Source: Kiritimatiellia bacterium (GTDB lineage Bacteria > Verrucomicrobiota > Kiritimatiellia > WLWN01). Taken from it: a stretch of 64,000 nt of DNA. Both the position numbers and the translations under genes were made by a program. Of this stretch, positions 1,775-36,223 are shown in pieces. The stretch is from NCBI GenBank assembly GCA_012103575.1, contig WLWN01000001.1, positions 75,792 through 139,791 of the forward strand, read 5' to 3'. The notes beneath the pieces are model-generated. The model saw only the letters and a program-made list of their open reading frames with translations. It had not been told where the DNA came from and searched no databases. Within the stretch, counting starts at the first letter, position 1, and every line of letters starts with the position of its first letter.

Positions 1775-1902
1775 TCTTCGATCTCCTTACTTTTGTTATT
1801 TATATCTGAGAAATGAATTTGTTTTATATTCGAGTCTATCTCTCTTTTCAAAGGGCACCATGCTACGTCATGCTTTAAAAGAAAAGTCAAAATTTGCAAC
1901 TA

Positions 1903-2432
1903 GAACGCTTCACGATTGAGGTGTCGCGATGTAGCACGAAGAAAACCAGCCGATTACCTCGTCGGGAGAAACCTCTTCGGACGCTTGTGTGATCGCTTCA
2001 GATAGTTCCTGCTGACTGCGGGCTGTAAGGCTGCCCAACCGATTCTTTATCTTGCCCCACATTTTTTCAATGGGGTTGGAATCGGGGCTGTAGGGTGGAA
2101 GGAATCTTACATGGACCCCACATGACTCAATGAGTTCAATGACCTTGGGATTGTGATGGACGTGAAGATTGTCCATGATGACCGGGATGTTTGCCCCCCA
2201 GTTGAGCCAACGCCTTGAGCTGCTTTCCGCTGTAGAGGGCCTGACGATGCCCACGCGGTCGGGGAGCGGTCTGTCCGGTTTCGTTGAAACGAGAGAGCCC
2301 ACGCTGAAACGTTCTAAGATCTACACGATAAGAAGATGCGATATCGGCCTGGGAACCTTTGCCCATTTTGTAGGCATCTATCGCACGCCGCCGGATTTCT
2401 GCTAGCGAGGCATTTTCAATCGTTAAATGCTC
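1903..2432 (-). mobile_element. IS630-family element, internally deleted copy (TA-flanked)
   Basis: Ends GAGCATTTAACGATTGAAAATGCC and CCTCAATCGTGAAGCGTTC match the other copies; flanking TA at 1901-1902 and 2433-2434; transposase N- and C-terminal pieces joined by a ~420-bp deletion. Confidence 0.75.
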
Positions 2433-3216
2433 TAATGTGCGTGCCGCCGCCAAAAGGCGCGCTATTTTTAGTAATGGTACAATTCTCAGTTGAACCACCC
2501 CGCATTCCTCCACCATAAATGTTGGCAATGTTGTCGCTAATGATAGAGTTCCGAACAGGCCCAAAATGCGTACCTCCACCATAATTGGCGACGTTGCTGT
2601 ACAATACACGATTCTCAACAACAGCGTGAGCTGCCGCGCCACCATCAACACCCGCCTGATTACTAACAAGGCTACAGTGTTTCAATATTCCTCCATATGC
2701 GCCACCACCAGCAACATTAGCTCTATTGCCAACAATAAAGCAGTTGGAAATTATGGCACCCGGTTCACACCAAACGCCTCCACCAGAATCTTCTTTAACA
2801 ATATCCCTAAAATTTTGGGTAAACCCATTTGTCAGAGTGAATCCGATCAATTCTGCCCCGTTTATCATATAGGCACAGCGTACGGCATTCGAACCAAGAG
2901 GTCCTTGCCCTTCGATTACGGTAAACGCTGGTCCATTCACACTGCAAACGGTTATGGGTTTGGTAATGGCAATCCGGTTTGTTCCATAAGTGAAAACGGC
3001 AACACCCCCGGTTGAGTAGGTTCCGTTGGTGACCAGGACCGTATCCCCATTGGAAGCCACATCAATGGCCGATTGAATATCGGTAGCCGCAGTGGCCCAA
3101 CTGGTAAAAGGAGTCGTATGACTTCCTGAGAAGGACACATAGTTCGTCGCTCCCCAGATCACGGACGTTAGGCAAAAGAAAAAGATCGGAACTAAATACT
3201 GTTGTTTCTGCATCAT
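2416..3216 (-). CDS. secreted parallel beta-helix repeat protein (Pmp/autotransporter-passenger-like), 3' end interrupted by IS630
   Basis: 266 aa; N-terminal signal peptide, repeated GGG/GGA and N-rich beta-helix motifs; stop codon lies inside IS630 terminus. Confidence 0.5.
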   Translation of the reverse strand: MMQKQQYLVPIFFFCLTSVIWGATNYVSFSGSHTTPFTSWATAATDIQSAIDVASNGDTVLVTNGTYSTGGVAVFTYGTNRIAITKPITVCSVNGPAFTVIEGQGPLGSNAVRCAYMINGAELIGFTLTNGFTQNFRDIVKEDSGGGVWCEPGAIISNCFIVGNRANVAGGGAYGGILKHCSLVSNQAGVDGGAAAHAVVENRVLYSNVANYGGGTHFGPVRNSIISDNIANIYGGGMRGGSTENCTITKNSAPFGGGTHIRAFND

Positions 3217-3344
3217 TGGATCTCCTAGTTTAGTTTTTCACACAAAATTGGTATACTATTTTTGCTTCTATTCATACTAGAGTATTTAACGATTGAAATG
3301 CCTCGCTAGCAGAAGTCCGGCGGCGTGCGATAGATGCCTACAAA

Positions 3345-3707
3345 ATGGGCAAAGGTTCCCAGGCCGATATCGCATCTTCTTATCGTGTAGATCTTAGAAC
3401 GTTTCAGCGTGGGCTCTCTCGTTTCAACGAAACCGGACAGACCGCTCCCCGACCGCGTGGGCATCGCCAGGCCCTCTACAGCGGAAAGCAGCTCAAGGCG
3501 TTGGCTCAACTGGGGGGCAAACATCCCGATGCAACGCTTGAAGAACTCAAGAACATGAGCGGCGTGAAGGGGTCGATCATGGCCGTACAGCGGGCGTTGA
3601 ATCGGTTGGGCTGCCGGTATAAAAGAAACGCTTCACGCCAGCGAGCAAGACCGGGCGGATGTAAATCTCTTGAGAAAGCAGTGGATCCAAGAAGTGGCCA
3701 AACTTGA
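3345..3707 (+). CDS. IS630 transposase, N-terminal HTH part (orfA)
   Basis: 120 aa helix-turn-helix-like region; overlaps orfB by 38 nt suggesting frameshift expression or decay. Confidence 0.7.
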   Translation: MGKGSQADIASSYRVDLRTFQRGLSRFNETGQTAPRPRGHRQALYSGKQLKALAQLGGKHPDATLEELKNMSGVKGSIMAVQRALNRLGCRYKRNASRQRARPGGCKSLEKAVDPRSGQT

Positions 3708-4233
3708 TCCAAGTCGCCTTGTCTTTATTGATGAATCCGGGGCGAAAACGAATATGACTTGTCTGCGGGGCCGGGCGTTGGGCGGGAACAGGCTTTTTGC
3801 CAAAACGCCTCATGGACATTGGTGTACCACCGCCTTGATTTCTTCGGTCCGCCTGGACGGAACAACAGCGGCCATGGAGGGGGAGGGGGCGACAGAGACG
3901 GCTGTTTTTGGAGAATATATTCGCCGGGTTCTTCTCCCGACTCTTTCACCTGAAGACATCGTCATCATGGACAATCTTTGCGTCCATTACAATCCCAGGG
4001 TCATTGAACTCATTGAGTCATGTGGGGCCCATGTAAGATTCCTTCCACCCTACAGCCCCGATTCCAACCCCATTGAAAAAATGTGGGGCAAGATAAAGAA
4101 TCGGTTGGGCAGCCTTGCAGCCCGCAGTCATCAGGAACTATCTGAAGCGCTCACACAAGCGTTCGAAGAGGTTTCTCCCGACGAGGTAATCGGCTGGTTT
4201 TCTTCGTGCTACATCGCGACACCTCAATCGTGA
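3670..4233 (+). CDS. IS630 transposase, DDE catalytic part (orfB)
   Basis: 187 aa; DDE_3-type motif VIMDNLCVH...FLPPYSPDSNPIEKMWGKIK. Confidence 0.8.
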   Translation: MRKQWIQEVAKLDPSRLVFIDESGAKTNMTCLRGRALGGNRLFAKTPHGHWCTTALISSVRLDGTTAAMEGEGATETAVFGEYIRRVLLPTLSPEDIVIMDNLCVHYNPRVIELIESCGAHVRFLPPYSPDSNPIEKMWGKIKNRLGSLAARSHQELSEALTQAFEEVSPDEVIGWFSSCYIATPQS

Positions 4234-4459
4234 AGCGCTCTAATGCCAGGCGCTAAAGGAAGGAACGGCATTCATGTGAGAAAGTTCAAAACAGAGAGAA
4301 ACACGTGGGCACCCTGCAGGAGAGTTCAACGTTTCGCGTGAACACCCTGCACGGTTGCCATGAAGCAGAGCTTTTGATTTTTCCTTTTTTATACGAACAA
4401 TCCCTTTCCTATACCGGCTGCGCCATGAAGCGTGGTTCGCGCAGCGAAGCTCTGCTTCA

Positions 4460-4535
4460 TGGCACCCCCAACGGGAATCGAACCCGTGTTTCCGGGATGA
4501 GAACCCGACGTCCTAGTCCACTAGACGATGGGGGC
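4460..4535 (-). tRNA. tRNA-Glu (anticodon CUC)
   Basis: Cloverleaf folded by hand: acceptor GCCCCCA/TGGGGGT, T-arm ACGGG-TTCGATT-CCCGT, anticodon loop TTCTCAT, CCA encoded. Confidence 0.8.
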
Positions 4536-4705
4536 AGTTATAGCGCAGAGGTCAGTGATCAGATACCAAATCATTAAAGTCTTATGAGCCTTCTTCAAAA
4601 CTAGTAAGTCAGCCATTCCTGGCTGACATGTATCAGGCAAGAATGCCTGACGTACTAAGGTTTTTGAGGAGACTAACATACCGAAAATCTTTTACAAAAG
4701 CCTCT

Positions 4706-5884: not shown

Positions 5885-8185
5885 ATGATAACCCAAGAGA
5901 AAAAAACACCCATGTATATAGAAAAAAACAGATTAGATTGGGAAGCACAACAAGCTAGAAATCACGAGCTTCTGAATGCTTCTAAATATATGCGTGAAAA
6001 AGTTATTTCAGAGGTTTTACCTTTTCACATTGATATGGAGAAAACAAAAACCCTCTCACAAGATCAGCTATATGTCTTGCAGGCAATGGGAATCGAAGCC
6101 GCACGAACGGCCATAGAAAGTGTAGGATCGCTTGCAAAGATTAATGAAGTGGACCATCTGGGTGGTGCGCTAGACCTCATTTCTTCCCTCCTCTTAACGC
6201 TTTCAATTACCGATTATAAAAAAACTGAATATACGATTGAGAATGCTCACACCAGTATTGGCTATTATGCGGCCTTATCCGTACTCGGTTACTTAGATCG
6301 AGAATGGGTCATTAATACCTTTCGCCGGGGATTAGATATTGCGGGTCATGTATCTTGGGTTCCAGGAGGCACACAACTAAATGGGGGTCGGCTAGGTGTT
6401 ATGGTTCCTATGGCTGTAGGACAGGCCCTTGGCAAAAGAGCGGTTTATGGTGAGGAGACATGGGTTGTTTGTCATTGTGGAGATGCAGGATGGATATCGG
6501 GTCAAGCGCTTAATGGCTTTAATGGGGCGGATCTGCACCGGGCGCCCATCACATTTGTGATGCAACGTAACGGCATTCAGCTTTCTGGATCCAATAAACA
6601 GATTATGGATAAAGATCCTCGGCCCATTATTGAATCGTTTGGAATAACCATTCTCGAAACGCCTAGTCTACACGAAGTGGACGTTTTATATAACGTGTAT
6701 AAAGAAGCGTATTCGCTAGCTCAACAAGGGCGGCCTTCCCTTATCTATCCAACTGGGTACGTGTCTTCTGATAATGAGTTGGTTGATCTCAATGTGTTTG
6801 GCAAACGATATAACGTTGAAAAAGAAGTAAAAGCTTTTGCGGAGACCCATCGTGTTTCTATGGATACCCCTATCTGGATCCCTGGTGCTCTCATGGGGTA
6901 TCGTGACGTCCCGGCAATGCTTGAGTGCTTATTTTTTACCAATGAGTTGCCCGGAGGGAAGGCACACCATGATGGACATCTTAAAGGACGTGATATGGAC
7001 GCGTTGCTAGCCAATCCCACGTTACAGATGTCCACAGAACAACAGACCGCATTAGACCGCCTTCGTTCTGTGCCCAGAAGAAAAGTTGAGACAAAGGCTC
7101 GTCCTGTTCCTGGAGCGAAAAACCTTGAATTGCCCCATTCTATCTTGTCTGAAATCAAATTGCCCGAAGCAGGCGAGCGAGTCAGTGCGAGGGTCGGGGT
7201 TGAAGCGGGATATGCCGCCGTGGCTGAAGCTTTTCCGGATCAAATGTTTGTCATTGGATGTGACTTGGACCCTTCTACTAAGTTAGGCAAAGCAAGCTCG
7301 CATCTAGATGTGAATCGCTGTTTCGAAATGAGTATTGAGGAGCAGGCCTCTGCGCTCATGGCCAGTGGGTTGGCCACAAGCCATGATGAGCCTCAACTCG
7401 TTGTCTTTTCGACCTTTGCTGCTTTTTTTGAGGGTATCGCACGTGAAGGATTGGAGGTGTGGCGTTATCAGCGAAATTTAAATGGCATGAACGAAGGTTT
7501 AAACGTGACGTTTCATATGTCCCATGTTGGCGCGTGTACGGGGCGCGACCATTTTTCGGGATGGGCGTTGGATTGGATAACCATGGCTATGGGTTACCTC
7601 CCCTATTTACACCGTTTTTATGCACCTGCAGATGCACGCTCAACGTTTATCGGAATAAGAGATTTAGCGGCACATTATGGCGCATATATTATGGGTGTTC
7701 CTAGAGATAACTTGCCGATTCTTGAAAAACAAGACGGCTCAGGTCCCCTCTGGGACGTTCATACTCCTTGGGAACCGATGACCCCGTTTCGAACCTATCC
7801 CAATGCCCAAAAGGCGATTTTGGCCTTTGGCGCGCCGGCGTTTCTCACCGATGAAGCGGCCCACGAACTTAATGAACAAGGAACACCTGTTGATGTATAC
7901 ATTGTTAATGGGCTCCCCTGTCCACTCCAAATATTGTCCGATATTTTTTCTCGATATCCAAAAGGTGTAGTGACCATTGAAGACGGGATTATAGCTACCC
8001 GAGAAATAGGGTTAAGAGGGTTTGCAGGGTTTATTGCAAGTGCTTCTTACTCGTCAAGTACGCCTACAGAACATATAGGTATTATTGATCCACGTCTGGC
8101 GCCCTCTGACGGTCACATGGAGGTATGGAAACACTTTGGCATTACGACAGAGGCCCTTGTAGAGACTGCTCTAAGCTTGGGGTAA
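5885..8185 (+). CDS. thiamine-diphosphate-dependent transketolase-like enzyme (divergent)
   Basis: 766 aa; ThDP-binding-like block CHCGDAGWISGQALNGFNGADLHRAPITFVMQRNGIQLSG; exact family uncertain. Confidence 0.45.
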   Translation: MITQEKKTPMYIEKNRLDWEAQQARNHELLNASKYMREKVISEVLPFHIDMEKTKTLSQDQLYVLQAMGIEAARTAIESVGSLAKINEVDHLGGALDLISSLLLTLSITDYKKTEYTIENAHTSIGYYAALSVLGYLDREWVINTFRRGLDIAGHVSWVPGGTQLNGGRLGVMVPMAVGQALGKRAVYGEETWVVCHCGDAGWISGQALNGFNGADLHRAPITFVMQRNGIQLSGSNKQIMDKDPRPIIESFGITILETPSLHEVDVLYNVYKEAYSLAQQGRPSLIYPTGYVSSDNELVDLNVFGKRYNVEKEVKAFAETHRVSMDTPIWIPGALMGYRDVPAMLECLFFTNELPGGKAHHDGHLKGRDMDALLANPTLQMSTEQQTALDRLRSVPRRKVETKARPVPGAKNLELPHSILSEIKLPEAGERVSARVGVEAGYAAVAEAFPDQMFVIGCDLDPSTKLGKASSHLDVNRCFEMSIEEQASALMASGLATSHDEPQLVVFSTFAAFFEGIAREGLEVWRYQRNLNGMNEGLNVTFHMSHVGACTGRDHFSGWALDWITMAMGYLPYLHRFYAPADARSTFIGIRDLAAHYGAYIMGVPRDNLPILEKQDGSGPLWDVHTPWEPMTPFRTYPNAQKAILAFGAPAFLTDEAAHELNEQGTPVDVYIVNGLPCPLQILSDIFSRYPKGVVTIEDGIIATREIGLRGFAGFIASASYSSSTPTEHIGIIDPRLAPSDGHMEVWKHFGITTEALVETALSLG

Positions 8186-8360
8186 GGGTGTTCAAAAAGG
8201 TAGTTGTACTGCGAGTAGGGCTGAACCTGTTCCATCACCAGATAGAAGGACTGCTACGAGTTCTTGTGAGATCCATGCCGCCATCAGTCCCTCATAAATG
8301 TGCAGGCCTTTATTCCTTTATCCAGACTATGGAATGACTTTTAACCCCGTTTTCCTGAGT

Positions 8361-8690
8361 GGTAGAGTAACAATACAAGTGCAAAGGTCCGCAGCATAGT
8401 TCATTCTTTGGGTATCTGACCCCCCCAAAGGAGAACATAGAATGCCACGAACCTACGAACATTTAAACCGTTATGAACGAGAAGTGATAGCCCAGATGCT
8501 AAAAGAAAAATATAGCTTATCTCAAATTGGCCATCGCCTGGGCCGATCCCCCTCGACTATTTGGTGCGAATTTCGCCGTAATCAAGTCCGTGGCCGCTAT
8601 TACCCAAGACACGCAAATGGCCTGGCTCAAAGCCGATTACAGCTAGCTCGAAAGCCTCAAAAAGTGATGGGAGCTAGCAAAGAATAAGTG
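8361..8690 (+). mobile_element. IS30-family element, truncated copy (left end and first 81 codons only)
   Basis: Left end GGTAGAGTAACAATACAAGTGCAAAGG identical to copies at 17149, 32309, 40160; transposase ORF 8442-8687 diverges from the full copy after residue ~80. Confidence 0.7.
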
Positions 8691-8880
8691 GACCTGAATC
8701 CGTCAGCTATCGCTTCGGAAGGCGTTTTGGGGCTCAAAAGTTGAAAATTTTTTCCTTGAGATGCTCGCTTTTGGGCGGATTGGGACCGGCAAGTATCACC
8801 CTGATGAATTTTTTGAGCGTACAGGTCAGATTCACTCTGATTTGACCATTTTGGGGCGTAGGCCTCCTTGGGCAGTCGCC

Positions 8881-10327: not shown

Positions 10328-10702
10328 TCAGATTTTGTCTGACGGATTCAGGAGATACCCTTTAGTGAGAGTTAGGTCTGAGATAACAAAATGACTCGCA
10401 TAGCTCTTGAAAATCCGGCTACTATTATCTCCACTAATGGTCAGATTTGTTCGACCTGGCCCAATAATGGTTAAGTCCTGGTTAATATCAATTTGACCGG
10501 TAGTAAGCGTGATGGTTGCACCGTCGAGAATATTTGCAAAAACAATGGTGTCTCCAGGTGCAGCTATTCCAACGGTGTCTCGCAATGAGCCTGGACCATT
10601 ATCCATTGAATTGAGCACAGTCAACGTTGCTCCCTCACTGGATACTACCAAAAAAATTAAGAACAGGATTAAAAAAGCTACGTAACGGAATGTATTGTTT
10701 AT
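10328..10702 (-). pseudogene. N-terminal fragment of a large beta-helix surface protein (signal peptide + GSLRD...TIVF...ITL...LTISG start)
   Basis: ORF reads straight out of the MITE at 10703; only ~100 aa of beta-helix before stop; no ATG start. Confidence 0.4.
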
Positions 10703-10865
10703 CCTGGATCCGTCAGTTAAACGCGGTTTTCTGCACGAACCATTTGGGCCAAAAGGAATTACAAAAAAGCCTCGACGCACCCAGCGGGTGCGCCTGCGTT
10801 TTTTTGCAACCTTTTGCCTCCAAAGCATTCGCACAGAAATCCCACGTTTAACTGACGGATCCAGG
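10703..10865 (+). mobile_element. MITE-1 copy 1 (163 bp, 21-bp perfect TIR CCTGGATCCGTCAGTTAAACG)
   Basis: Near-identical to copies at 15947-16109, 36061-36223 (inverted) and 51184-51338 (left TIR truncated). Confidence 0.75.
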
Positions 10866-12255
10866 GTTCAATATCACCTGGCACACCATCATTATCTGTG
10901 TCAGTAGACACGTCATAAACACGGGCAAACCACGTATAGGCTCCTGATAATGGATTTTCTCCAATATCAGATAGTGATGAACTCAAAACAGCTCGGTAAT
11001 AACCAGGCCCAAGATTTGTACTAAAACTTTGCAAGGCTACATTAAAATCATTTTCATAGGTAAATTACGCTTCCTGTCACAACCACATCATCCACAGTAC
11101 TATGAATCCCATCTGGACCCGCCTCAAAAATGGCAAAGGAACTGATATCTAATGTTGATGCATCCATAGGCTCACTGAATGTAGCTGAAAAGACAGAAAG
11201 ATCTTTGAGCAACGACCCGTTCTTAGGTGTCACCGCTTTTACCTGGGGTGAGGTCGCATCAAGTAGAAGTGTTACAACAATGTTACTACTCCACGTTGCA
11301 TTTCCTCCTGTATCACTGGCACGTGTTTGAATTGAAAATGTGGACTGCTCGGTTAATCGAGGGGTTATGAAATGATATTCAAACGGGAAGTTTCCATCGG
11401 TAGGGGCTTTGATTCCATCAATATAAAACTCAACATTACGAATTTGGACATCATCATTCACCTCAACGTTAATGCGGACCCATTTCCCTTCTTCAGCTTG
11501 GGGAGGATTTAAGGAAAAGTTGGCTGACAACGTAGCAGACGGAGGATTTCCTGCCGTATCCGCAGATAAGTAATTGATGACCTGCAGACCGGCGCTGTGA
11601 TCGGCTACATAGGCTTGGCCATTATATATGGAGACCGCACGGGCAATCCCTGGTGTTTGGTGTTCGGTGATAGTTGAAGGCATTTACATTACTCGGGTTA
11701 CTGACATTGTATAAAGAAATGTTGTGAGCGCCATCCAATGTACTATTAGGACTCACTGCAGCAATACCCAACCCTGAACCATTCACGACCATGTGTTTCC
11801 AACCAAACTGCGAGGCTGATAAGTTATCAACAGGGGATCAGCAGGATCACTGACATCAAGCGTATTATACCCTCTACGATATATTGTGTAGGCAATGTCA
11901 TTTCCGACAAACAAACGCATTCGCCCACTGCCTGAACTCGGTGTACCCGGTGAAGAAACCGAGCCAAGGATTTGCATAGACCCCTTTTAGTATTCTAGAA
12001 TATGAAAAGCCCTTAAAGCAAGGACATATAAGTAATTTCCTGAAAAAACCACGTCATGGACCTCGTAAAGGAAAGAGTATGTTTCAAGAACCTCACCACT
12101 CCCTAAATCAACTTCACATACTTTGCTATTAAAACCATTGGCAATCCCCACAAAGGCGATCCCTCCTGCGGCAGCAACAGCCCGTGTAAAACCTATAAAG
12201 TTGACTTGATGGGTAATAGAGGCCAACGCTGGATCAGTAATGTCAATGATAGCTA
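10866..12255 (-). pseudogene. LVIVD-repeat/beta-propeller-like surface protein, fragmented (4 ORF pieces), 5' cut by IS630, 3' interrupted by MITE-1
   Basis: ORF fragments 10759-11034, 11054-11683, 11783-11977, 11987-12226 in different frames; repeated YVADHSAGLQVIN / NYLYVLA type motifs. Confidence 0.4.
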
Positions 12256-12863
12256 GAGCGCTTCACGATTGAGGTGTCGTGATGTAGCACGAAGAAAACC
12301 AGCCGATTACCTCGTCGGGAGAAAAACCCGGCGAATACATTCTCCAAAAACAGCCGTCTCTGTCGCCCCCTCCCCCTCCATGGCCGCTGTTGTTCCGTCC
12401 AGGCGGACCGAAGAAATCAAGGTGGTGGTACACCAATGTCCATAAGGCGTTTTGGCAAAAAGCCTGTTCCCGCCCAACGCCCGGCCCCGCAGACGAGTCA
12501 TATTCGTTTTCGCCCCGGATTCATCAATAAAGACAAGGCGACTTGGATCAAGTTTGGCCACCTCTTGGATCCACTGCTTTCTCAAGAGATTTACATCCGC
12601 CCGGTAACGCCTTGAGCTGCTTTCCGCTGTAGAGGGCCTGACGATGCCCACGCGGTCGGGGAGCGGTCTGTCCGGTTTCGTTGAAACGAGAGAGCCCACG
12701 CTGAAACGTTCTAAGATCTACACGATAAGAAGATGCGATATCGGCCTGGGAACCTTTGCCCATTTTGTAGGCATCTATCGCACGCCGCCGGATTTCTGCT
12801 GTTGCTATACTCGTGTCATGGAGTATAGATCTTCTAGAGAGGCATTTCAATCGTTAGATGCTC
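12256..12863 (-). mobile_element. IS630-family element, internally deleted copy (TA-flanked)
   Basis: Same termini as other copies; TA at 12254-12255 and 12864-12865; DDE region deleted at junction GGGAGAAAAACCCGG. Confidence 0.75.
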
Positions 12864-12867
12864 TAAT

Positions 12868-14566
12868 GTGTCTGCTCAAGGTGTCGACTTTACCACATTG
12901 TTCGATCCTGTTACGTGGAGCTTAACGACGGGTTATTACGCAATACGAGCCAGAAGTGAAGATTCATTTGGGCAATCCGATAATTTCCAGCCAGACATCA
13001 GCGGTGTAGGCGCTGATACCTCTGGTAAGACCACAGCAGAATGGCATAGAGATTTGGGTGTAATTAGAGTAATAGAAATTATTCTCCCTCCGGTAGACTT
13101 GGACATTGATTCTGACAATAACAATAGATTAGGCATTCCGGATAGAAGTACTACAGAGGATGAGGGTGAAGACGTTTTGGGGAATTCCGCTCAACCTGGA
13201 AAATTTATAGAGGTAAGCACAGAAGACGCAGACAATGACAATATACCTGACTTTGCAGATGGATTTAACCTCGATGGAATGGGTGGAAATGATGACGATA
13301 CCTCTGTTGGTGTAGGGTTTATACCTTTAGTCTTTGAATTGGCAGGCGTCACAAATCTAGAAGTTGCCGAAAATAAGGCTTACATATAACGCATCCGATC
13401 CATTGGGGGTTGCTGTGTCGGGGACATCCACGAATCGAACCTATACACCTGGGGCAGGTGGCTTGCGGATATGGACCGAAGATGGTGGGGTCGTTCGGAA
13501 TGGAAATCAGGTACATGTCGGTGGAAATTTTATTTCTTCGAGTGTTTATGATGCGACCAATTTGGGTTTCTCAATGAACAACCTTATTGTTACATCCTAT
13601 GTCGAAGGGATATGGGGAAGCGCATCTGTAGCGGATCAACACATTCTAGTTGAGGTAGATCCTGATGGGTCAGCTGGAGCAGGGTTCGTGCATAGTGATG
13701 CGGTTCGGGTTACTCTGCTTGAGTTAACCTTTTCTAGCGATGAGACAGGGAATCTATATCTACCTGCATTTAACGGCTCGACTAATGTGGCAAGGTTAGA
13801 TGAATTCAGGTTTTTAGTGGGGGAAAACCGCGCGATACTGGGTAAAGTGTCCGGGAGTTTGGATAGGAGTTTTACCTTTGAAGTTGTGGGAGATAGTATT
13901 CCGGCTATTCCGCCCGTGCCCGCTTTGGGTAATTTAGCAAATAGTGGGTTTTCTTTTACACCTAATGCCACGTTAGGGAATCGACCTCTCGGAACAACAG
14001 CAATTCCCGCTGTACGCTATACCGTTAGTATTAAAAACTCACTAGGAACGGTTGTGGTTGACAAGACTATATCCCAAGATCTGATTGACCGAGTACGGCA
14101 AGAATATATAGATCGTTTTATTCATCACGGTACTGGTTTTACAGCAGGGAGTATAGGGTTGGTTTCTCATGCCCCTTCTCGCGATGAGGTTAAGCGTGCG
14201 CCATCTATACAAGTGGGTGGACCTGGACCTATTGGAAACTGTAGGGATTGGCCGAATCCGAATTATACAGAATCGGGAATAGGCATTGTGTGGGATCAAG
14301 GGTCTGTTGATCTTATTAACAATATTCGGTTAAACATGGGTCCTGATACGGTCTGCCTTCATAGCGGGCATAGGAGTCCGTCTCATAATCAGCGAGTAAA
14401 CGGTGCGACTAATAGTGACCACCAATGGGGACGGGCCGCAGACATGTCTTATGAAAATACGGTGGTAGTGGGTACCGTTGCAGCAGCTTTATTTCACTTG
14501 CGTCTCTATCGGGTTGCTCTTGGAGAGACAACGGGTCAGATTCTGCTTGAGCTGAATTCAGCCTAA
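12868..14566 (+). CDS. secreted acidic protein with C-terminal peptidase M15 (VanY/zinc D-Ala-D-Ala carboxypeptidase-like) domain; 5' end abuts IS630, internal frameshift near 13364-13389
   Basis: Two overlapping ORFs (12868-13389, 13364-14566); motif HSGHRSPSHNQRVNGATNSDHQWGRAADM resembles the M15 SGYRSPxxN...SxHxxGxAADi signature; D-rich possible Ca-binding stretch. Confidence 0.45.
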
Positions 14567-14994
14567 CGACTACCCAACCGATGGGATCCACCTCCAACCA
14601 ATCATACGTTTGTTGCGATATCAGGAAACGCCAATTGGCAAGTGGAAGTCGAAGACAGTAATCAAGATGGTCTGCCGGATCAAGTAAACGCGGTAATGGG
14701 CACGATTCCAAATGCTACAGATTTAGTTTGGAATGGGGGAGGGACAAGTAATCCTCCGCTTAGGGTTTTAGATGGAAATAATAATAACCAAATCGATGTT
14801 GGGGAAACGTTAGTGATCATCTATAACGGGACACATACGCTTTTCGAACGATTTTCTGGAGCTAGCCATATCCATGCAGAAACCAATTAAGAAAAAAGGA
14901 AAGACTTTATTGACGGAGTGTTTAATTCATGCGAAGCAGAGTGATGAGTCAAGAAGGCCTTAGACTATGAAAAATAGATCATGGGAGAAAGAGA

Positions 14995-15290
14995 CAGCGC
15001 CCCTCCAGGGCGCAGGATCTGTTCTCATGACCTTTCCTGGGGTTAAAACCCCAGGCTATATACCCTCACTGCGTTGCAGTGAAACAGGATTGAAGAGGTT
15101 GGAATTATGGATGAGATTGAAACTCTAGGTGGCATGTCCACACTGCATTGCAGTGAAGAAAGGTCGGATTTTGTATGGCGACAAATATGATGATTCCAAA
15201 GATGTCCCAACGGGACAAGGTGATACAGCCTGGGGTTTTGACCCCAGGAACGAGGGAACAACCCTTCCATTGCGCCCTGAAGGGGCGCTG
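14995..15290. repeat. MITE-2 copy 1 (hairpin-rich ~296-bp element with palindromic ends GCGCCCCTCCAGGGCGC / GCGCCCTGAAGGGGCGC)
   Basis: Second copy at 15615-15896; internal perfect palindromes CCTGGGGTTAAAACCCCAGG. Confidence 0.6.
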
Positions 15291-15348
15291 TTGAGGAGAG
15301 GAAAATGAGGAAAATAATGTTTAATTTAAATTTTACAGAAGGAGAAAA

Positions 15349-15594
15349 ATGAAAATAAAAGAATCCATAGCTGAAATCCAAGCCGTCGGACGTCGGATAT
15401 CCACAGAGTATGGACCTGGTATAAAAGCCTTGCTTAATCACTGCAAGGAATCCGCAAAGTCCTATAAAGATCAATTATTGCTCCATTCTAAACGACAGAT
15501 CCACAGAGTGGCCGAAACTTTGGCTGAGTACACAGCCGAGAAAGAGGATGAAACAGGGCAGGTTAAGAAGGCATTAGAAAATGAGAAGAAATAA
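15349..15594 (+). CDS. small hypothetical protein (81 aa) between the two MITE-2 copies
   Basis: ATG preceded by GGAGAAAA Shine-Dalgarno-like sequence; charged K/E-rich; no recognisable family. Confidence 0.3.
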   Translation: MKIKESIAEIQAVGRRISTEYGPGIKALLNHCKESAKSYKDQLLLHSKRQIHRVAETLAEYTAEKEDETGQVKKALENEKK

Positions 15595-15614
15595 ATCATG
15601 GGTGAAGAAGGTAC

Positions 15615-15896
15615 GGCACCCCTTCAGGGCGCAAGATCTTTTTTCATTACGTCTCCTGGGGTTGAAACCCCAGGCTATGCGTTGCAGTGAAAGAGGATGG
15701 AAGATGTTGGAATTATAGACGAGGTTGGACAGGTTGGCATGTTCACACATCATTGCAGTGAAGAGAGATCGGATTTTATAGGGTGACGAATATGATGACT
15801 CAAAAAGATGTCCCAATGGGACAAGGTGATACAGCCTGGGGTTTCAACCCCAGGAACCAGAAAACAATCATCCCATTGCGCCCTGAAGGGGCGCTG
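15615..15896. repeat. MITE-2 copy 2
   Basis: Near-identical architecture to 14995-15290 with scattered substitutions. Confidence 0.6.
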
Positions 15897-15946
15897 TCTA
15901 ATGAAAAAGAGTAAGAGCATGAATAAAGAACGTATAAATATAATAG

Positions 15947-16109
15947 CCTGGATCCGTCAGTTAAACGCGGTTTTCTGCACGAACCATTTGGGCCAAAAGG
16001 AATTACAAAAGAGCCTCGACGCACCCAGCAGGTGCGCCTGCGTTTTTTTGCAACCTTTTGCCTCCAAAGCATTCGCACAGAAATCCCACGTTTAACTGAC
16101 GGATCCAGG
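15947..16109 (+). mobile_element. MITE-1 copy 2
   Basis: Perfect TIRs; same internal sequence as copy 1. Confidence 0.75.
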
Positions 16110-16170
16110 AATAGGAAAACGTTCCGCCCCAAATCTTTTTTCTGCTATCTTCTTCGTATTCTGTGGTTTA

Positions 16171-17148
16171 ATGATCTTTCTCTTGTATGCGACAACCTCG
16201 ACAGCTAATCCTCTGGTCACGGTTACATCAAAAGTCGTGGGGACTCAACTGGAAGTTTCTCCCGTGCAAATGGCGGTGCCAAAAGGAATCGCCGGGTCTG
16301 TAAATGTGAACATTGTAGCAGGACTTGGAGGTGAAAATGAAACATCCCTTGCCCTAGCCGATGGCGTTCATATTGAGGCAACCCTACGGGGTCCTTCTTT
16401 TGCGGCCCGACAAACCTTTGGTCGCCCAAATGAACCCCTGTTGTTCCCGCCATTACCGCTAGTCGGCGATTATCAACTCGATGCTATTAAGCTGGTCGAT
16501 TCTGCAACCGGTAAAATCCGCCTCGAAGGTTCCCCCTCAAGCATCCCTATTTTTGTATTCAAAGAAGTGCTGGTTACCCGGGTAACTTCACGGCCGTTAA
16601 CCCTCGACGAGATTCAGGAAAAAGGGATTTTGATCGATGAATCCAATTTTCGGGCGGTGGAATTTGAAGTGGGGTTTGTGATCGACGGAAAAACGGTTCC
16701 GGTCAAGTTACCGGTGATTGCCCCCACGTTTAAAGAAGCCACAGAAATTATTCCTCAAGCAGAAATCGATGAAAAGATGGCGGCAGCCAATGTGATGAAT
16801 CAGCAACTTTCTCAGACAGCGGAGTTACCGCCGGAACTGGAAGCCGCAGGTCTAAACATTGAAATTCAAGGCATCAATTTTCAGTTTGTGGATACAACTT
16901 TAGAATTAGGTCTTGCTCTACAACCTCCTCCGATTCCTGCATTGATGGTGATTCCGGGGAATATTGGTTTTATCAATCAGTTTTTTAGTGTTCAGATTTT
17001 TATGGAAAATGGGGTGCCGGGAGGTTCGGGACTTAACGTGCATAATATGCAGGCCGAACTACTCCTGCCGGTGGGATCGGATTTGGTAGCTGGAACGTAT
17101 GAGGTTTCCGGCGATGATCCATTGCGTTTTGCGCGGACAGGAACGAAT
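16171..17148 (+). CDS. hypothetical protein fragment, 3' end runs into IS30
   Basis: ORF 16171-17187 continues into the IS30 left end at 17149; no recognisable motifs. Confidence 0.35.
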
Positions 17149-18194
17149 GGTAGAGTAACAATACAAGTGCAAAGGTCCGCAGCATAGTTCATTCTTTGGG
17201 TATCTGACCCCCCCCCAAAGGAGAACATAGAATGCCACGAACCTACGAACATTTAAACCGTTATGAACGAGAAGTGATAGCCCAGATGCTAAAAGAAAAA
17301 TATAGCTTATCTCAAATTGGCCGTCGCCTGGGCCGATCCCCCTCGACTATTTGGCGCGAATTTCGCCGTAATCGAGTCCGTGGCCGCTATTACCCAAGAC
17401 CCGCAAATGGCCTGGCTCAAAGCCGATTACAGCTAGCTCGAAAGCCTCAAAAAGTGATGGGAGCTAGCAAAGAACAAGTGGAGACTCTCCTGGCGAATAT
17501 TGGTCTCCAGAACAGATTGAAGGTCGAGGAAAGCTAGAAGGTGACCCTCCCATCAGTCGAATGATGATCTACCGCTACTTGTACAGTCCAAGAGGGGCTG
17601 GCTACCGAAAATACCTGCGTGGCCCCGGAAAGAAAAAACGAGCGACTCGGAAAAGCCATTCACGTATACACAACCAAACGATGATTGACCAACGCCCCGA
17701 AGAGGGTGAAAGTCGCAAGGTGGCAGGCCATTGGGAAGGTGACACTATTCAGGGCCAAACGAGAAAAGAGGCCTGTGTAGTCACTCTAGTAGATCGAGCG
17801 ACTCGATATCTCATCGCCGATCTTTTACCTCGATGCAATGCCGAATCGGTCAACCGTTCCGTACCTCAGTTCGCTGATTCAGGGCTCCCCTTTAAAACGG
17901 TGACTGTAGATAATGGCATGGAGTTTGCCAGCCATGCTAAACTACAGAAAAAAATAGCAACCCCCATTTTCTTTGCTGAAGGGAGAAACCCTTGGCAAAG
18001 AGGGAGCAACGAAAATACGAATGGTTTGCTTCGCCAGTTTTTCCCGAAGAAAACCGACTTTGCTGCCCACAGCTCCGCTCAGTTGAGCTGGGCTGTGGAG
18101 TTACTGAATAATAGGCCGAGAAAATGCTTAGAATATAGAACGCCCAAAGAAATGATGGACAGCTTCGGTTTTGCACTTGTAAGTTGAGTCTGCA
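17149..18194 (+). mobile_element. IS30-family element (type 1), transposase frameshifted
   Basis: Transposase split into ORFs 17232-17537 and 17561-18187 by a 1-nt deletion (GAATATTGG versus GAAGTATTGG in the intact copy). Confidence 0.8.
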
Positions 18195-32308: not shown

Positions 32309-33357
32309 GGTAGAGTAACAATACAAATGCAAAGGTCCGCAGCATAGTTCATTCTTTGGGTATCTGACCCCCCCCAAAGGAGAACATAGAATGCCACGAA
32401 CCTACGAACATTTAAACCGTTATGAACGAGAAGTGATAGCCCAGATGCTAAAAGAAAAATATAGCTTATCTCAAATTGGCCGTCACCTGGGCCGATCCCC
32501 CTCGACTATTTGGCGCGAATTTCGCCGTAATCGAGTCCGTGGCCGCTATTACCCAAGACCCGCAAATGGCCTGGCTCAAAGCCGATTACAGCTAGCTCGA
32601 AAGCCTCAAAAAGTGATGGGAGCTAGCAAAGAACAAGTGGAGACTCTCCTGGCGAAGTATTGGTCTCCAGAACAGATTGAAGGTCGAAGAAAGCTAGAAG
32701 GTGACCCTCCCATCAGTCGAATGACGATCTACCGCTACTTGTACAGTCCAAGAGGGGCTGGCTACCGAAAATACCTGCGTGGCCCCGGAAAGAAAAAACG
32801 AGCGACTCGGAAAAGCCATTCACGTATACACAACCAAACGATGATTGACCAACGCCCCGAAGAGGGTGAAAGCCGCAAGGTGGCAGGCCATTGGGAAGGT
32901 GACACTATTCAGGGCCAAACGAGAAAAGAGGCCTGTGTAGTCACTCTAGTAGATCGAGCGACTCGATATCTCATCGCCGATCTTTTACCTCGATGCAATG
33001 CCGAATCGGTCAACCGTTCCGTACCTCAGTTCGCTGATTCAGGGCTCCCCTGTAAAACGGTGACTGTAGATAATGGCATGGAGTTTGCCAGCCATGCTAA
33101 ACTACAGAAAAAAATAGCAACCCCCATTTTCTTTGCTGAAGGGAGAAACCCTTGGCAAAGAGGGAGCAACGAAAACACGAATGGTTTGCTTCGCCAGTTT
33201 TTCCCGAAGAAAACCGACTTTGCTGCCCACAGCTCCGCTCAGTTGAGCTGGGCTGTAGAGTTACTGAATAATAGACCGAGAAAATGCTTAGAATATAGAA
33301 CGCCCAAAGAAATGATGGACAGCTTCGGTTTTGCACTTGTAAGTCTCCACCTCTGCA
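32309..33357 (+). mobile_element. IS30-family element (type 1), apparently intact
   Basis: Left end GGTAGAGTAACAATACAA..., right end ...TTTTGCACTTGTAAGT...TGCA; single 323-aa transposase ORF. Confidence 0.85.
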
Positions 33358-36043: not shown

Positions 36044-36060
36044 CCCGTTTTAGTATATTA

Positions 36061-36223
36061 CCTGGATCCGTTAGTTAGACGTGGGATTTCTGTGCGAATG
36101 CTTTGGAGGCAAAAGGTTGCAAAAAAACGCAGGCGCACCCGCTGGGTGTGTCGAGGCTTTTTTGTAATTCCTTTTGGCCCAAATGGTCCGTGCAGAAAAC
36201 CGCGTTTAACTGACGGATCCAGG
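36061..36223 (-). mobile_element. MITE-1 copy 3 (inverted orientation)
   Basis: Perfect TIRs; located 18 bp upstream of tadA start. Confidence 0.75.

What the first reader, a model, noticed from the sequence alone, without database searches (positions are those of the whole stretch)
14995..15896. Pair of hairpin-rich ~290-bp repeats (MITE-2) flanking a small 81-codon ORF
Two diverged copies (14995-15290 and 15615-15896) begin and end with self-complementary GC-rich palindromes (GCGCCCCTCCAGGGCGC and GCGCCCTGAAGGGGCGC, themselves inverted repeats of each other) and contain internal perfect palindromes (CCTGGGGTTAAAACCCCAGG) and repeated CATTGCAGTGAA motifs. They bracket ORF 15349-15594, which has a Shine-Dalgarno-like GGAGAAAA. 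A MITE-1 copy follows within 50 bp. The arrangement could be a small mobile cassette, a structured non-coding RNA locus, or a recombination hotspot.
Basis: seen in the sequence. Interest (0 to 1): 0.45.

Follow-up and report, generated by a model that had tools for sequence, protein, structure and literature searches.

The report
Duplicated REP-like transposase hairpin cluster
Two neighbouring ~300-base repeats are clusters of DNA hairpins of the same kind that flank, and are probably handled by, a small single-strand-DNA (Y1/HUH) transposase in at least ten bacterial phyla; Rfam files these hairpins as a small RNA ('Acido-Lenti-1'), which they most likely are not.

Summary
Copy A (14995-15291) and copy B (15613-15897) are 82% identical, each has ~67-nt inverted arms, and ORF81 lies between them.

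Each arm is a three-hairpin module: hp0, ~22 nt, hp1, CT, linker, hp2. The hp1-linker-hp2 part matches Rfam RF01687 (Acido-Lenti-1) below threshold (25-33 bits; cut-off 37).

The exact hp1 sequence occurs in more than 119 loci from ten phyla, often as inverted doublets or tandem arrays. The only recurrent neighbouring gene is a 150-aa IS200-like Y1 transposase. Its motifs fit TnpAY1 subclass 1.2, which the literature lists as having no REP.

In 80 further Y1 loci, 56 of 70 with adequate flanks carry outward-facing hairpin+CT modules. Bona fide RF01687 hits (37-58 bits) flank the gene. The window's arms match these gene-flanking arms best.

I conclude that this is a REP/BIME-like, non-autonomous cluster cognate to a Y1 transposase, duplicated locally and partly decaying. 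The window holds no transposase, no target-site duplication and no other copy.

ORF81 has normal codon usage but no homologue. There is no evidence that it is cargo. The element itself is ordinary. The link between Acido-Lenti-1 and Y1 appears to be new.

The parts
14948..14994 (+). Upstream extension of repeat copy A. It is similar to the 3' end of ORF81 plus the spacer before copy B, with the remnant reading 'VKKALDYEK*'. It contains a 20-nt stretch (14967-14986) that weakly resembles the last 20 nt of Y1 transposase ORFs.
   Evidence: Local alignment 14948-14989 versus 15562-15606. Similarity to Y1 3' ends scores 28 against a null maximum of 23-26, and is collinear with hp0. This is weak and post hoc.
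14995..15291 (+). Repeat copy A. It is an 'R...L' cluster: a right-type arm (hp0-hp1-hp2), a lineage-specific core with a degenerate second module, then an inverted left-type arm (hp2-hp1-hp0).
14997..15013 (+). hp0 of the copy A left arm (GCGCCC CTCCA GGGCGC). It is an hp2-type hairpin.
   Evidence: Sequence. Partial hp2-like hit with model R1 at 14989-15011. The same hairpin lies 5-8 nt after the Y1 stop codon in L062 and L124-L133.
15036..15083 (+). hp1 (15036-15055), CT, linker and hp2 (15067-15081). This is an Acido-Lenti-1-like module of the copy A left arm.
   Evidence: RF01687 27.0 bits, below the gathering score of 37. R1 49.7 bits (this arm was in the training set).
15112..15157 (+). 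Degenerate second hp1-hp2 module inside the core, 72% identical to 15038-15083.
   Evidence: Direct repeat D5.
15201..15250 (-). hp2 (15203-15217), linker and hp1 (15229-15248) of the copy A right arm, read on the minus strand.
   Evidence: RF01687 24.9 bits. R1 46.2 bits.
15272..15288 (-). hp0 of the copy A right arm (GCGCCC TGAAG GGGCGC).
15349..15594 (+). ORF81, probably a real lineage-specific small gene (GKR87_00490, hypothetical protein). It sits between an inverted left-type arm and a right-type arm, in the geometry in which Y1 genes sit. Its last 11 codons lie in the duplicated segment.
   Evidence: Only hit in 5.8e9 proteins is itself. Codon score 0.205 against 0.238 +/- 0.092 for in-frame genes and -0.51 off-frame. 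No Pfam, PADLOC or PDB match. No similarity to Y1.
15562..15612 (+). Upstream extension of repeat copy B: the ORF81 tail, its stop codon and a spacer.
15613..15897 (+). Repeat copy B, with the same architecture as copy A. Its left arm is decaying: hp0 has a stem mismatch and hp2 was lost through an 11-nt deletion.
15653..15702 (+). hp1 (15655-15674), CT and the hp2 remnant of the copy B left arm.
   Evidence: RF01687 24.7 bits, hp1 only. R1 32.9 bits.
15807..15856 (-). hp2 (15809-15823), linker and hp1 (15835-15854) of the copy B right arm.
   Evidence: RF01687 33.4 bits, the best of the four. R1 51.3 bits.
15878..15894 (-). hp0 of the copy B right arm.

Best explanation
The two repeats are one locally duplicated cluster of REP-type hairpin modules. 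REP stands for repetitive extragenic palindrome.

Anatomy. Each arm holds three hairpins: hp0, ~22 nt, hp1 (8-bp stem, 4-nt loop), an abutting CT(A/G)T, a ~9-nt linker, and hp2. The hp1-linker-hp2 part is the motif that Rfam calls Acido-Lenti-1 RNA.

What was shown. Such modules flank, in inverted and outward-facing orientation, the genes of a 150-aa IS200-like Y1 (HUH) transposase. That enzyme has the motif signature of TnpAY1 subclass 1.2. The same modules are scattered as inverted doublets and tandem arrays through the genomes that carry them. The window's arms are homologous to these gene-flanking arms.

What is inferred. By analogy with TnpA_REP and IS608, the hairpins extrude on single-stranded DNA, for example at the replication fork. 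The Y1 enzyme would bind hp1 and tell the strands apart by loop and tag: CT at the 3' foot, which reads NTAG or NCAG at the 5' foot on the other strand. It would cut at or near that CT through a 5'-phosphotyrosine link and rejoin the strand, spreading or rearranging the modules without a target-site duplication.

In this window. The cluster is non-autonomous and possibly a relic. There is no Y1 gene here, this is the only locus in 64 kb, and one arm is decaying. The two copies arose by duplication of a ~615-bp segment rather than by two insertions.

ORF81 is a probably genuine, lineage-specific small gene in the spacer. Its position between a left-type and a right-type arm follows automatically from two adjacent R...L clusters.
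For: 1. The repeats and their arms are real.

2. There are four RF01687 hits with the full two-hairpin architecture, on + in the left arms and on - in the right arms.

3. The exact hp1 sequence occurs in more than 119 loci of ten phyla. In 144 of 160 cases a perfect hairpin follows 10-13 nt downstream, against 23% in shuffles. Many are +/- doublets or tandem arrays, and several genomes carry copies on 4-7 contigs.

4. The only recurrent hairpin-flanked gene is a Y1_Tnp protein (Pfam 83-95 bits; NCBIfam IS200 65-73 bits, cut-off 55), found in L047, L062 and L119.

5. Its motifs are D/NH[VI]H, WQ and Y..NQ..HH at 150 aa. These fit subclass 1.2 of Quentin et al. 2018.

6. In 80 independent Y1 loci, 37 of the 70 with adequate flanks have a perfect hairpin+CT on both sides facing outward, and 19 more have one on one side. 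The inward-facing control gives 3 and 15.

7. There are 23 RF01687 hits at or above the gathering score in 11 of 20 Y1 loci. All upstream hits are on the - strand and all but one downstream hit are on the + strand.

8. hp1 stems covary between loci: 96.5% paired, 8 of 8 pairs with double changes, score 0.569 against 0.163 in shuffles (0 of 500) and at most 0.139 when slid.

9. In a scan that did not require CT, 61 of 80 hairpins near Y1 genes are followed by CT, mostly CTAT, CTAC or CTAA. TnpA_REP enzymes cut at C|T next to REPs, and the last two bases (AG) of the GTAG tag matter most (PMC8266576).

10. The window arms match the arms next to Y1 genes best (78-82% over 66-80 nt, E = 1e-9 to 1e-12). 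The core has no homologue.

11. Between copies A and B, about 68 stem positions carry one change. Spacers are 73% identical and the core 80%.

12. There is no target-site duplication, as expected for Y1 elements. The neighbouring MITE-1 does have 5-bp duplications.
Against: - The window holds no Y1 gene or remnant: profile HMM against the six-frame translation, best E = 1.3. The rest of the 3.1-Mb genome could not be searched.
- This is the only locus in 64 kb. The family is therefore not abundant here in the way REPs usually are.
- The window modules score below Rfam's gathering cut-off.
- Their tags are ATAG and ACAG, not the canonical GT[AG]G.
- No empty site or strain polymorphism was found. 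All assemblies carrying the locus are identical.
- The two copies are adjacent and share non-arm flank, so nothing shows that this R...L unit ever transposed.
- No subclass 1.2 enzyme has been tested biochemically. Binding, strand choice and cleavage site are inferred from other subclasses.
- Covariation fits an RNA structure as well as a single-strand-DNA structure.
Confidence: 0.68

Rival explanations
1. The modules are genes for a structured small RNA, which is Rfam's own annotation of Acido-Lenti-1. The repeats are then an sRNA locus, and the hairpins act at the RNA level, for example in mRNA stabilisation, processing or protein binding.
For: Weinberg et al. 2010 rated the motif a likely RNA on covariation grounds. 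Covariation is strong here too. REP-type elements are often transcribed and can affect mRNA. The arms lie just downstream of two small ORFs.
Against: Modules occur on both strands as inverted pairs within one element. They flank Y1 genes symmetrically, - upstream and + downstream. They carry a CT/AG tag like REPs. The Y1 gene plus its arms moves as a discrete 650-700-bp block. The promoter and terminator scan of the region gave no more sites than shuffles.
Confidence: 0.12
2. The mobile or functional unit is the inner one: left-type arm (15203-15288), ORF81, right-type arm (15616-15690). This would be a Y1-arm-bounded cassette in which a lineage-specific gene has replaced the transposase.
For: The geometry matches that of L062, L119 and L124-L140: hp2-hp1-hp0, gene, hp0-hp1-hp2. 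ORF81 has gene-like codon usage. Twenty nucleotides just before hp0 weakly resemble the end of Y1 ORFs and are collinear with it.
Against: Any two adjacent R...L clusters give this geometry automatically. What is duplicated is the R...L unit, not the arm-ORF-arm unit. ORF81 has no homologue, so no second cassette exists in the databases. ORF81 shows no similarity to Y1 at protein level, and there is no DNA similarity on the 5' side. The right-type arm of this putative unit is the decayed one.
Confidence: 0.08
3. A classical MITE, meaning a deletion derivative of a DDE-transposase insertion sequence that is recognised through its terminal inverted repeats.
For: It has ~67-nt terminal inverted repeats, a size of ~290 bp and no coding capacity of its own. 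The window is full of IS30-like and IS630-like copies and a true MITE.
Against: There is no target-site duplication. The ends match nothing else in the window, including the IS ends. The arms are homologous to Y1-flanking hairpin modules. The copies share flank beyond the inverted repeats.
Confidence: 0.04
4. An integron-type gene cassette in which ORF81 is followed by an attC-like folded recombination site.
For: A small ORF is followed by a structured imperfect palindrome. Weinberg et al. noted Acido-Lenti-1 near group II introns in Lentisphaerae. From my own knowledge, some of these introns target attC sites.
Against: No integrase-like gene was seen among the neighbouring ORFs examined, although the rest of the window was not screened. 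There are no GTTRRRY core sites at the boundaries. At ~290 nt the repeats are far longer than attC sites. The family is tied to Y1 genes.
Confidence: 0.01

Closest known systems
REP/BIME sequences with their RAYT (TnpA_REP) genes, known as REPtrons (E. coli, Pseudomonas, Stenotrophomonas, Marinomonas)
   Same: A GC-rich hairpin carries a short conserved tag that ends in AG (CT on the other strand). Inverted copies flank a Y1 HUH gene. Further copies are scattered as inverted dimers and clusters. Stems covary between genomes. There is no target-site duplication.
   Different: The enzyme is the IS200-like core type (Y..Q..HH, subclass 1.2), not class 2 (Y...NP). NCBIfam REP_Tyr_transpos scores only 24-28 bits against a cut-off of 80.

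The module has three hairpins rather than one. The tag is NTAG or NCAG rather than GT[AG]G. The gene plus arms behaves as a discrete ~670-bp block in unrelated contexts. An identical hp1 is found in ten phyla, whereas REPs are usually lineage-specific.
Rfam RF01687, Acido-Lenti-1 RNA motif (Weinberg et al. 2010)
   Same: The architecture is the same: an 8-bp hairpin with a 4-nt loop, CU(A), a ~10-nt linker and a 5-bp hairpin. Some seed members (Rhodopirellula, whale-fall and soil sequences) have the same UUGAAAC loop region.
   Different: The window copies score 25-33 bits, below the cut-off of 37. Rfam types the family as an sRNA gene. Here it appears as paired DNA ends of a transposase gene, together with an extra hairpin (hp0) that the model does not cover.
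REPINs (Bertels and Rainey 2011)
   Same: Two REP-type units lie in inverted orientation around a spacer. The whole folds into a long hairpin. The unit is non-autonomous and is presumed to be mobilised in trans by a Y1 enzyme.
   Different: Each unit here is a three-hairpin module. The element also holds a third, degenerate module. Copy number in the host genome, and the presence of the enzyme there, are unknown.
IS200/IS605 insertion sequences and their PATE derivatives
   Same: The transposase passes the NCBIfam IS200 model. The gene plus hairpin ends form a compact ~670-bp unit. The chemistry is that of single-strand DNA. There is no target-site duplication.
   Different: IS200/IS605 ends carry hairpins in direct orientation on one strand. 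Here the ends are long inverted repeats. Quentin et al. list subclass 1.2 as low-copy and lacking IS200-type ends.
TIRYT/TIRtrons (Di Nocera et al. 2013), including Koribacter versatilis ORF1552
   Same: Y1 genes are flanked by long, partly self-complementary inverted repeats, which can form small repeat families. Koribacter is also a host of Acido-Lenti-1 seed sequences.
   Different: Most TIRYTs belong to subclass 2.1 and share a GGGGWSAS motif, which is absent here. Whether the ORF1552 repeats are Acido-Lenti-1 modules was not tested.
Classical bacterial MITEs, such as the MITE-1 copy 44 nt downstream, Correia and ERIC elements
   Same: They are small and non-coding, have inverted ends, and fold strongly.
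   Different: MITE-1 has plain 24-nt inverted repeats, 5-bp target duplications and four 95-98% identical copies in the window. The hairpin element has none of these features.

Membership tests
Rfam RF01687 Acido-Lenti-1 | Covariance-model score at or above the curated gathering score of 37 bits. | tested here: not met
   The four window modules score 33.4, 27.0, 24.9 and 24.7 bits. Related modules flanking Y1 genes score 37-58 bits.
Rfam RF01687 Acido-Lenti-1 | Architecture of an 8-bp hairpin with a 4-nt loop, then CU, a ~10-12-nt linker and a 5-bp hairpin. | tested here: met
   Full-length alignments (model positions 1-46) for three of the four arms. The fourth lacks hp2.
REP (repetitive extragenic palindrome), canonical | A 5' GT[AG]G tetranucleotide at the foot of the hairpin. 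| tested here: not met
   The window tags read ATAG (twice) and ACAG (twice) on the tag-5' strand. Family-wide the tags are CTAT 19, CTAC 14, CTAA 9 and CTTT 8 of 80. Only the AG/CT part is conserved, and GTAG is a minority.
REP (repetitive extragenic palindrome), canonical | Many dispersed intergenic copies in the host genome. | not testable with these tools
   Only 64 kb of the 3.1-Mb genome is held, and it contains one locus with four modules. In other genomes the exact hp1 sequence lies on 4-7 different contigs.
REP (repetitive extragenic palindrome), canonical | Inverted copies flank a cognate Y1 (TnpA_REP) gene, forming a REPtron. | tested here: inconclusive
   Met for the family: 37 of 70 loci on both sides and 19 on one side, with RF01687 hits on both sides. 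Not met in the window, which has no Y1 gene. The rest of the genome was not searchable.
REPIN | Two REP units in inverted orientation around a short spacer, able to form one long hairpin. | tested here: met
   The arms are 76-79% complementary across ~150 nt. The minimum-free-energy fold pairs the arms, with z = -9.8 and -7.6.
REPIN | A population of copies in the genome, replicated by a single-copy RAYT. | not testable with these tools
   There are two adjacent copies that share non-arm flank.
TnpAY1 subclass 1.2 (Quentin et al. 2018); applies to the partner enzyme found in related loci | About 148 aa, HuH motif DH[IV]H, W motif WQ, Y motif Y..NQ..HH. | tested here: met
   The proteins are 150 aa with NHVH, DHVH or DHIH, WQ, and YIENQEEHH, YILNQEAHH or YVRNQKEHH, compared with Table 1 of the paper. 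This is a motif comparison, not a search with the authors' HMM.
Classical MITE | Terminal inverted repeats plus a target-site duplication, and several dispersed copies. | tested here: not met
   Inverted ends are present, but the flanks differ (AGAGA|...|TTGAG and AGGTA|...|TCTAA). There is no further copy in the window.
IS200/IS605-derived PATE | Subterminal hairpins in the same orientation at both ends. | tested here: not met
   The hairpin modules at the two ends are reverse complements of each other.
Integron attC site or cassette | R''/R' core sites (RYYYAAC ... GTTRRRY), a 57-141-nt site, and an integron integrase or attC array nearby. | tested here: not met
   There are no core sites at the boundaries, and the repeats are ~290 nt. 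The neighbouring ORFs scanned are an M15 peptidase and IS30-type transposase parts.

The most novel reading that the evidence does not exclude
Two claims go beyond what the evidence establishes.

First, Acido-Lenti-1 is not an sRNA. It is the three-hairpin single-strand-DNA end of a ~670-bp Y1 (subclass 1.2) element that has spread across at least ten phyla.

Second, the window preserves such an element with its transposase swapped for a lineage-specific gene. The inner arms bracket ORF81 exactly as they bracket the Y1 gene elsewhere, and a 20-nt trace of the Y1 3' end remains. That would be cargo capture by a HUH/Y1 element, giving a REP-bounded gene cassette.
Probability: 0.08. Interest if true: 0.65.

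Novelty: new variant of a known kind. Interest (0 to 1): 0.5.

Why it matters
Taken alone, the locus is a decaying cluster of palindromic repeats in a repeat-rich genome, which is ordinary. Tracing it led to three more general points.

1. An orphan Rfam family, Acido-Lenti-1, has been annotated as an sRNA since 2010. It turns out to be the inverted, hairpin-rich flank of a Y1 HUH transposase gene.

2. That enzyme subclass (TnpAY1 1.2) was described in 2018 as having no REP-like partner and no IS-like ends. Here most of its genes carry such ends, and the gene plus ends forms a discrete block.

3. The same 22-nt hairpin is found unchanged in ten phyla, which is unusual for REP-type repeats.

If this holds, genome annotation pipelines are labelling transposase recognition sites as sRNA genes. 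A new and very compact REPtron/IS type would also become available for biochemical study of how Y1 enzymes read hairpin, loop and tag.

In the paper library I could search, five papers mention Acido-Lenti-1. The four listed do not appear from their titles and abstracts to concern transposases; only Weinberg 2010 was read. No paper contains the hairpin sequence. That library is incomplete, so priority cannot be claimed.

Tried and rejected
- **Rfam at gathering threshold on the whole window:** only three tRNAs.
- **ORF81:** Pfam, PADLOC and PDB sequence searches found nothing. The homologue search in 5.8e9 proteins found only itself. I did not run a structure prediction, because a single sequence with no alignment would be uninformative.
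- **ORF81 or the spacer as a degraded Y1 gene:** tblastn, a 120-sequence profile HMM against all six frames, hmmsearch on ORF81 alone (-1.0 bits; shuffles reach 10 bits) and hhalign (probability 0.05) were all negative. An apparent SY..Q..H match that I saw by eye is therefore rejected.
- **Region after the left-type arm versus Y1 5' ends:** no similarity.
- **Strain polymorphism:** every assembly that carries the locus is identical or breaks at repeats.
- **Cognate Y1 in the same samples:** two look-ups of close Y1 clusters came from unrelated assemblies.
- **Phage carriage:** no hp1 match and no Y1 relative in 2.9 million viral contigs.
- **Intrinsic terminator or promoter role:** the number of sites is not above shuffles.
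- **Integron, CRISPR-like and type III toxin-antitoxin array ideas:** dropped for lack of any defining feature.
- **Limitation:** Genome-wide copy number in the source organism was therefore not obtained.
Full report
**1. The observation**

The region 14995-15897 holds two diverged direct repeats. Copy A is 14995-15291 and copy B is 15613-15897. They are 82% identical over 296 nt, E = 3e-81.

- Each copy ends in ~67-nt inverted repeats, 76-79% identical.
- Each folds into a long rod far more stably than shuffled sequence, with z = -9.8 and -7.6.

Two corrections apply. First, the similarity between the copies continues ~45 nt upstream of the left palindrome (14948-14989 versus 15562-15606). 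It therefore covers the last 11 codons of ORF81, and a broken remnant ('VKKALDYEK*') precedes copy A. Second, copy B has lost its left hp2 hairpin through an 11-nt deletion and has a mismatch in its left terminal palindrome.

**2. Anatomy**

Reading inward, each arm is a three-hairpin module:

- hp0 (GCGCCC-loop-GGGCGC)
- about 22 nt of spacer
- hp1 (CCTGGGGT-NNAA-ACCCCAGG)
- CT directly at the foot of hp1
- a ~9-nt linker
- hp2 (a 5-6-bp stem with a 3-nt loop)

The left arm lies on the + strand and the right arm on the - strand. The core between them holds a third, degenerate hp1-hp2 unit at 15112-15157.

Between copies A and B, the roughly 68 stem positions carry a single change. The spacers are 73% identical and the core 80%. 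The other differences inside hairpins fall in the loops. The stems have therefore stayed constrained, or been homogenised, since the duplication.

There is no target-site duplication.

**3. The Rfam lead**

A permissive Rfam scan gives exactly four hits in the 64-kb window. All are to RF01687 (Acido-Lenti-1): two on + in the left arms and two on - in the right arms. They score 33.4, 27.0, 24.9 and 24.7 bits against a gathering score of 37.

Weinberg et al. [quoted passage not shown]

Their seed alignment shows the same architecture as the window modules. It has a nearly invariant CU after the first hairpin. Some members carry the same UUGAAAC loop region as here. Many members sit in tandem arrays with periods of 74, 110-115 or 190-200 nt.

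The window comes from a Kiritimatiellae MAG, a PVC relative of Lentisphaerae.

**4. Relatives elsewhere**

They come from ten phyla: Cyanobacteria, Acidobacteriota, Desulfobacterota, Planctomycetota, Verrucomicrobiota, Chloroflexota, Bacteroidota, Myxococcota, Sumerlaeota and Spirochaetota.

- In 144 of 160 instances, hp1 is followed 10-13 nt later by a perfect hairpin of varying sequence. Shuffles give 23%.
- An hp0-type hairpin often lies ~22 nt upstream.
- Many loci hold +/- or -/+ doublets 30-570 nt apart, or same-strand tandem arrays.
- Several genomes carry copies on 4-7 different contigs.

This is the organisation of REP/BIME-type repeats.

**5. The partner gene**

I clustered all ORFs within 1.5 kb of hp1 in these loci. 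Only one recurrent hairpin-flanked family emerged: a 150-aa protein in L047, L062 and L119. The three proteins are 39-44% identical to each other.

- It is a Y1 HUH transposase: Pfam Y1_Tnp 83-95 bits and NCBIfam IS200 65-73 bits, against a cut-off of 55.
- It is not the NCBIfam RAYT type: REP_Tyr_transpos scores 24-28 bits against a cut-off of 80.
- Its motifs (D/NH[VI]H, WQ, Y..NQ..HH) and its length fit TnpAY1 subclass 1.2 of Quentin et al. 2018.
- That paper lists subclass 1.2 as low-copy, without IS200-type ends, and 'REP: no'.

In L062 and L119 the layout is hp2-hp1-hp0, gene, hp0-hp1-hp2, with the two arms inverted and facing outward. In L119 one hp1 carries compensatory changes, and hp0 has a different sequence that still pairs.

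**6. Test on independent loci**

A metagenome scan with the three-protein profile gave 80 further Y1 loci.

- Aligning each downstream flank with the reverse complement of its upstream flank recovers the same three-hairpin module in most loci. The hp1 stems differ from locus to locus but stay paired: CCAGGGCC, CCGGTGGT, CCCACGGC, CCCCCGGT, CACCCGGC and others.
- I applied a strict criterion: a perfect stem of at least 7 bp followed by CT. Of the 70 loci with at least 120 nt on both sides, 37 have it on both sides facing outward and 19 more on one side. The inward-facing control gives 3 with both and 15 with any.
- Rfam's own model at its gathering threshold finds 23 Acido-Lenti-1 hits (37-58 bits) in 11 of 20 such loci. 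All upstream hits are on the - strand, and all but one downstream hit are on the + strand.
- On an alignment of 68 modules, hp1 is 96.5% paired and all 8 pairs show double-sided changes. The covariation score is 0.569, against 0.163 in shuffles (0 of 500) and at most 0.139 with slid partners.
- In a scan that did not require CT, 61 of 80 distinct hairpins near Y1 genes are followed by CT. The commonest tetranucleotides are CTAT, CTAC, CTAA and CTTT, which read NTAG or AAAG at the 5' foot on the other strand.

**7. Link back to the window**

BLAST of copies A and B against all fetched loci gives its best matches to the arms immediately next to Y1 genes in L133, L129, L140, L124 and L062. These are 78-82% identical over 66-80 nt, E = 1e-9 to 1e-12.

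The left arm of each copy matches the arm downstream of the gene. The right arm matches its reverse complement. The core (~15085-15200) has no homologue.

Each window copy is therefore 'right arm, core, left arm' (R...L). This is the opposite order to 'left arm, gene, right arm'.

Both R...L and L...R doublets occur in other genomes. Those in L085, L097 and L101 look like gene-less L-R derivatives, with the two hp0 hairpins innermost.

**8. The Y1 unit is discrete**

Among close relatives of the L062 gene (80-91% nucleotide identity), most pairs share only a 650-700-bp block. It runs from about -108 to +115 around the ORF, which is the gene plus both arms. The DNA beyond is unrelated.

In L127 and L130 versus L129, the same neighbouring DNA lies on the opposite side of the block and in the opposite orientation. 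The gene plus its arms therefore behaves as a mobile or rearranging unit.

Neither the hairpin nor the gene occurs in 2.9 million viral contigs.

**9. Mechanism**

Shown here:
- homology of the window arms to Y1-flanking arms;
- the family-wide inverted flanking of a Y1 gene;
- stem covariation and conservation of the CT/AG tag;
- absence of a target-site duplication.

Inferred from published work on other Y1 enzymes (PMC8266576; PMC6006769):
- Hairpins form on single-stranded DNA.
- The enzyme recognises the stem-loop plus the tag.
- It distinguishes a REP from its inverse.
- It cleaves at a C|T next to the hairpin through a 5'-phosphotyrosine intermediate and then transfers the strand.
- In those systems the last two tag bases, AG, are the most critical. 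AG is also the invariant part here.

Which strand is the substrate, and where exactly the cut falls, remain untested for subclass 1.2.

**10. Status of this locus**

The window holds no Y1 gene or remnant. The profile HMM against the six-frame translation gives a best E of 1.3.

A covariance model built from 68 modules and run without filters finds only the four arms, plus the hp0 hairpins as partial hp2-like hits. The arms were part of the training set, so their own scores are not independent evidence. The absence of any other hit is informative.

The cluster is therefore non-autonomous and locally rare. One arm is decaying. The two copies are best explained by duplication of a ~615-bp segment.

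Whether the genome holds a cognate enzyme or other copies could not be tested. All assemblies of the locus are identical.

**11. ORF81**

ORF81 has no homologue in 5.8e9 proteins other than itself, where it is annotated as a hypothetical protein of a Kiritimatiellae MAG. It has no Pfam, PADLOC or PDB match.

Its codon usage is that of real genes in the window. It scores 0.205, against 0.238 +/- 0.092 for in-frame windows and -0.51 +/- 0.23 for off-frame windows. No off-frame window reaches its score.

ORF81 sits in the slot a Y1 gene would occupy, between a left-type arm and a right-type arm. That follows from the adjacency of two R...L units.

It shows no similarity to Y1, and the DNA on its 5' side shows none either.

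One weak lead remains. The 20 nt at 14967-14986, just before hp0 of copy A, resemble the last 20 nt of Y1 ORFs and are collinear with them. The score is 28 against a shuffle maximum of 23-26. The corresponding stretch at the end of ORF81 aligns in the same way but with weaker support (scores 14-22; p about 0.04 at best, mostly above 0.05). This was noticed post hoc, in A-rich sequence.

**12. Comparison and novelty**

The system works like REP/BIME-RAYT. It fails the strict REP definition, because there is no GT[AG]G tag. Its enzyme is not class 2.

It resembles IS200 in its enzyme and its compact size, but its ends are inverted rather than direct.

It resembles the TIRtrons of Di Nocera et al. 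2013. However, most of those belong to subclass 2.1 and carry a different motif.

I file it as a new variant of a known kind. The element in the window is ordinary. The link between Acido-Lenti-1 and subclass 1.2 Y1 genes, and the three-hairpin end, appear to be unreported in the library I could search. That library is incomplete.

Noticed in passing
window 15941-16115; also 10700-10865, 36056-36228 (-), 51183-51340: 'MITE-1' is a true MITE family. There are four copies, 95-98% identical, with 24-nt terminal inverted repeats (CCTGGATCCGTCAGTTAAACGCGG). AT-rich 5-bp target duplications flank two copies (AATAG at 15941; TATTA at 36056). The copy at 51183 lacks its left end.
   Followed up: partly
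window 17146-18194, 32309-33344, 40156-41206; partial copy at 8351-8692: An IS30-like element of ~1.05 kb is present in three full copies (about 99% identical) and one partial copy. In the copy next to the finding, the transposase is split into an HTH_38 ORF (17232-17537) and an rve ORF (17561-18187).
   Followed up: partly
window 1898-4242, 12253-12865, 46017-46873: Fragments of another repeated element, with IS630-like ORFs at 12307-12850 on the minus strand, occur three to four times in both orientations. Short-read assemblies of this organism break at these repeats: L120 spans 12686-17273.
   Followed up: no
window 42642-43867 and 49958-51183; 47655-48400 and 48039-48788: A 1.2-kb inverted repeat (98.8% identical) brackets ~6 kb. 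Within that stretch is an overlapping ~750-nt self-match at 82% identity, offset by ~385 nt, which indicates tandem repeats. The window as a whole is unusually rich in repeats.
   Followed up: no
L024 ~900-1010, L090 ~4490-4610, L092 ~6020-6140 (Desulfobacteraceae MAGs): In these loci the three-hairpin module is enclosed by a 13-nt outer stem (ATCGTTTCGGCCA ... TGGCCGAAACGAT). The whole ~140-nt unit could fold as a cloverleaf-like four-way junction.
   Followed up: no
L127/L130 versus L129 (metagenome Y1 loci): The same neighbouring DNA lies downstream of the ~680-bp Y1 block in L127 and L130, but upstream and inverted in L129. This points either to inversion between the inverted arms or to re-insertion of the block.
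   Followed up: partly
L202 2226-2834; L143 846-1097; L095 6350-6437: Bona fide Acido-Lenti-1 modules form same-strand tandem arrays next to or away from Y1 genes, with periods of 188, 69 and 66 nt. In these arrays the hp0 hairpin of one unit is the hp2 hairpin of the preceding unit.
   Followed up: partly
L004, L033, L035, L098, L100, L112, L118 (Stigonema ocellatum MAG): Here the exact hp1 hairpin sits without hp2 inside CCCCACT-type short repeats (...CCCACTCCCT-hp1-ATCCCCACTCCCC...). This is a different context from all other genomes.
   Followed up: no
window 14967-14986 and 15581-15602: The 20 nt before hp0 of copy A (ATGAAAAATAGATCATGGGA) resemble the last 20 nt of Y1 ORFs (ATGAAAAATATATC-TGGGA) and are collinear with them. 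The copy B equivalent at the end of ORF81 aligns similarly but with weaker support. This may be a trace of a former transposase gene. The statistical support is weak.
   Followed up: partly
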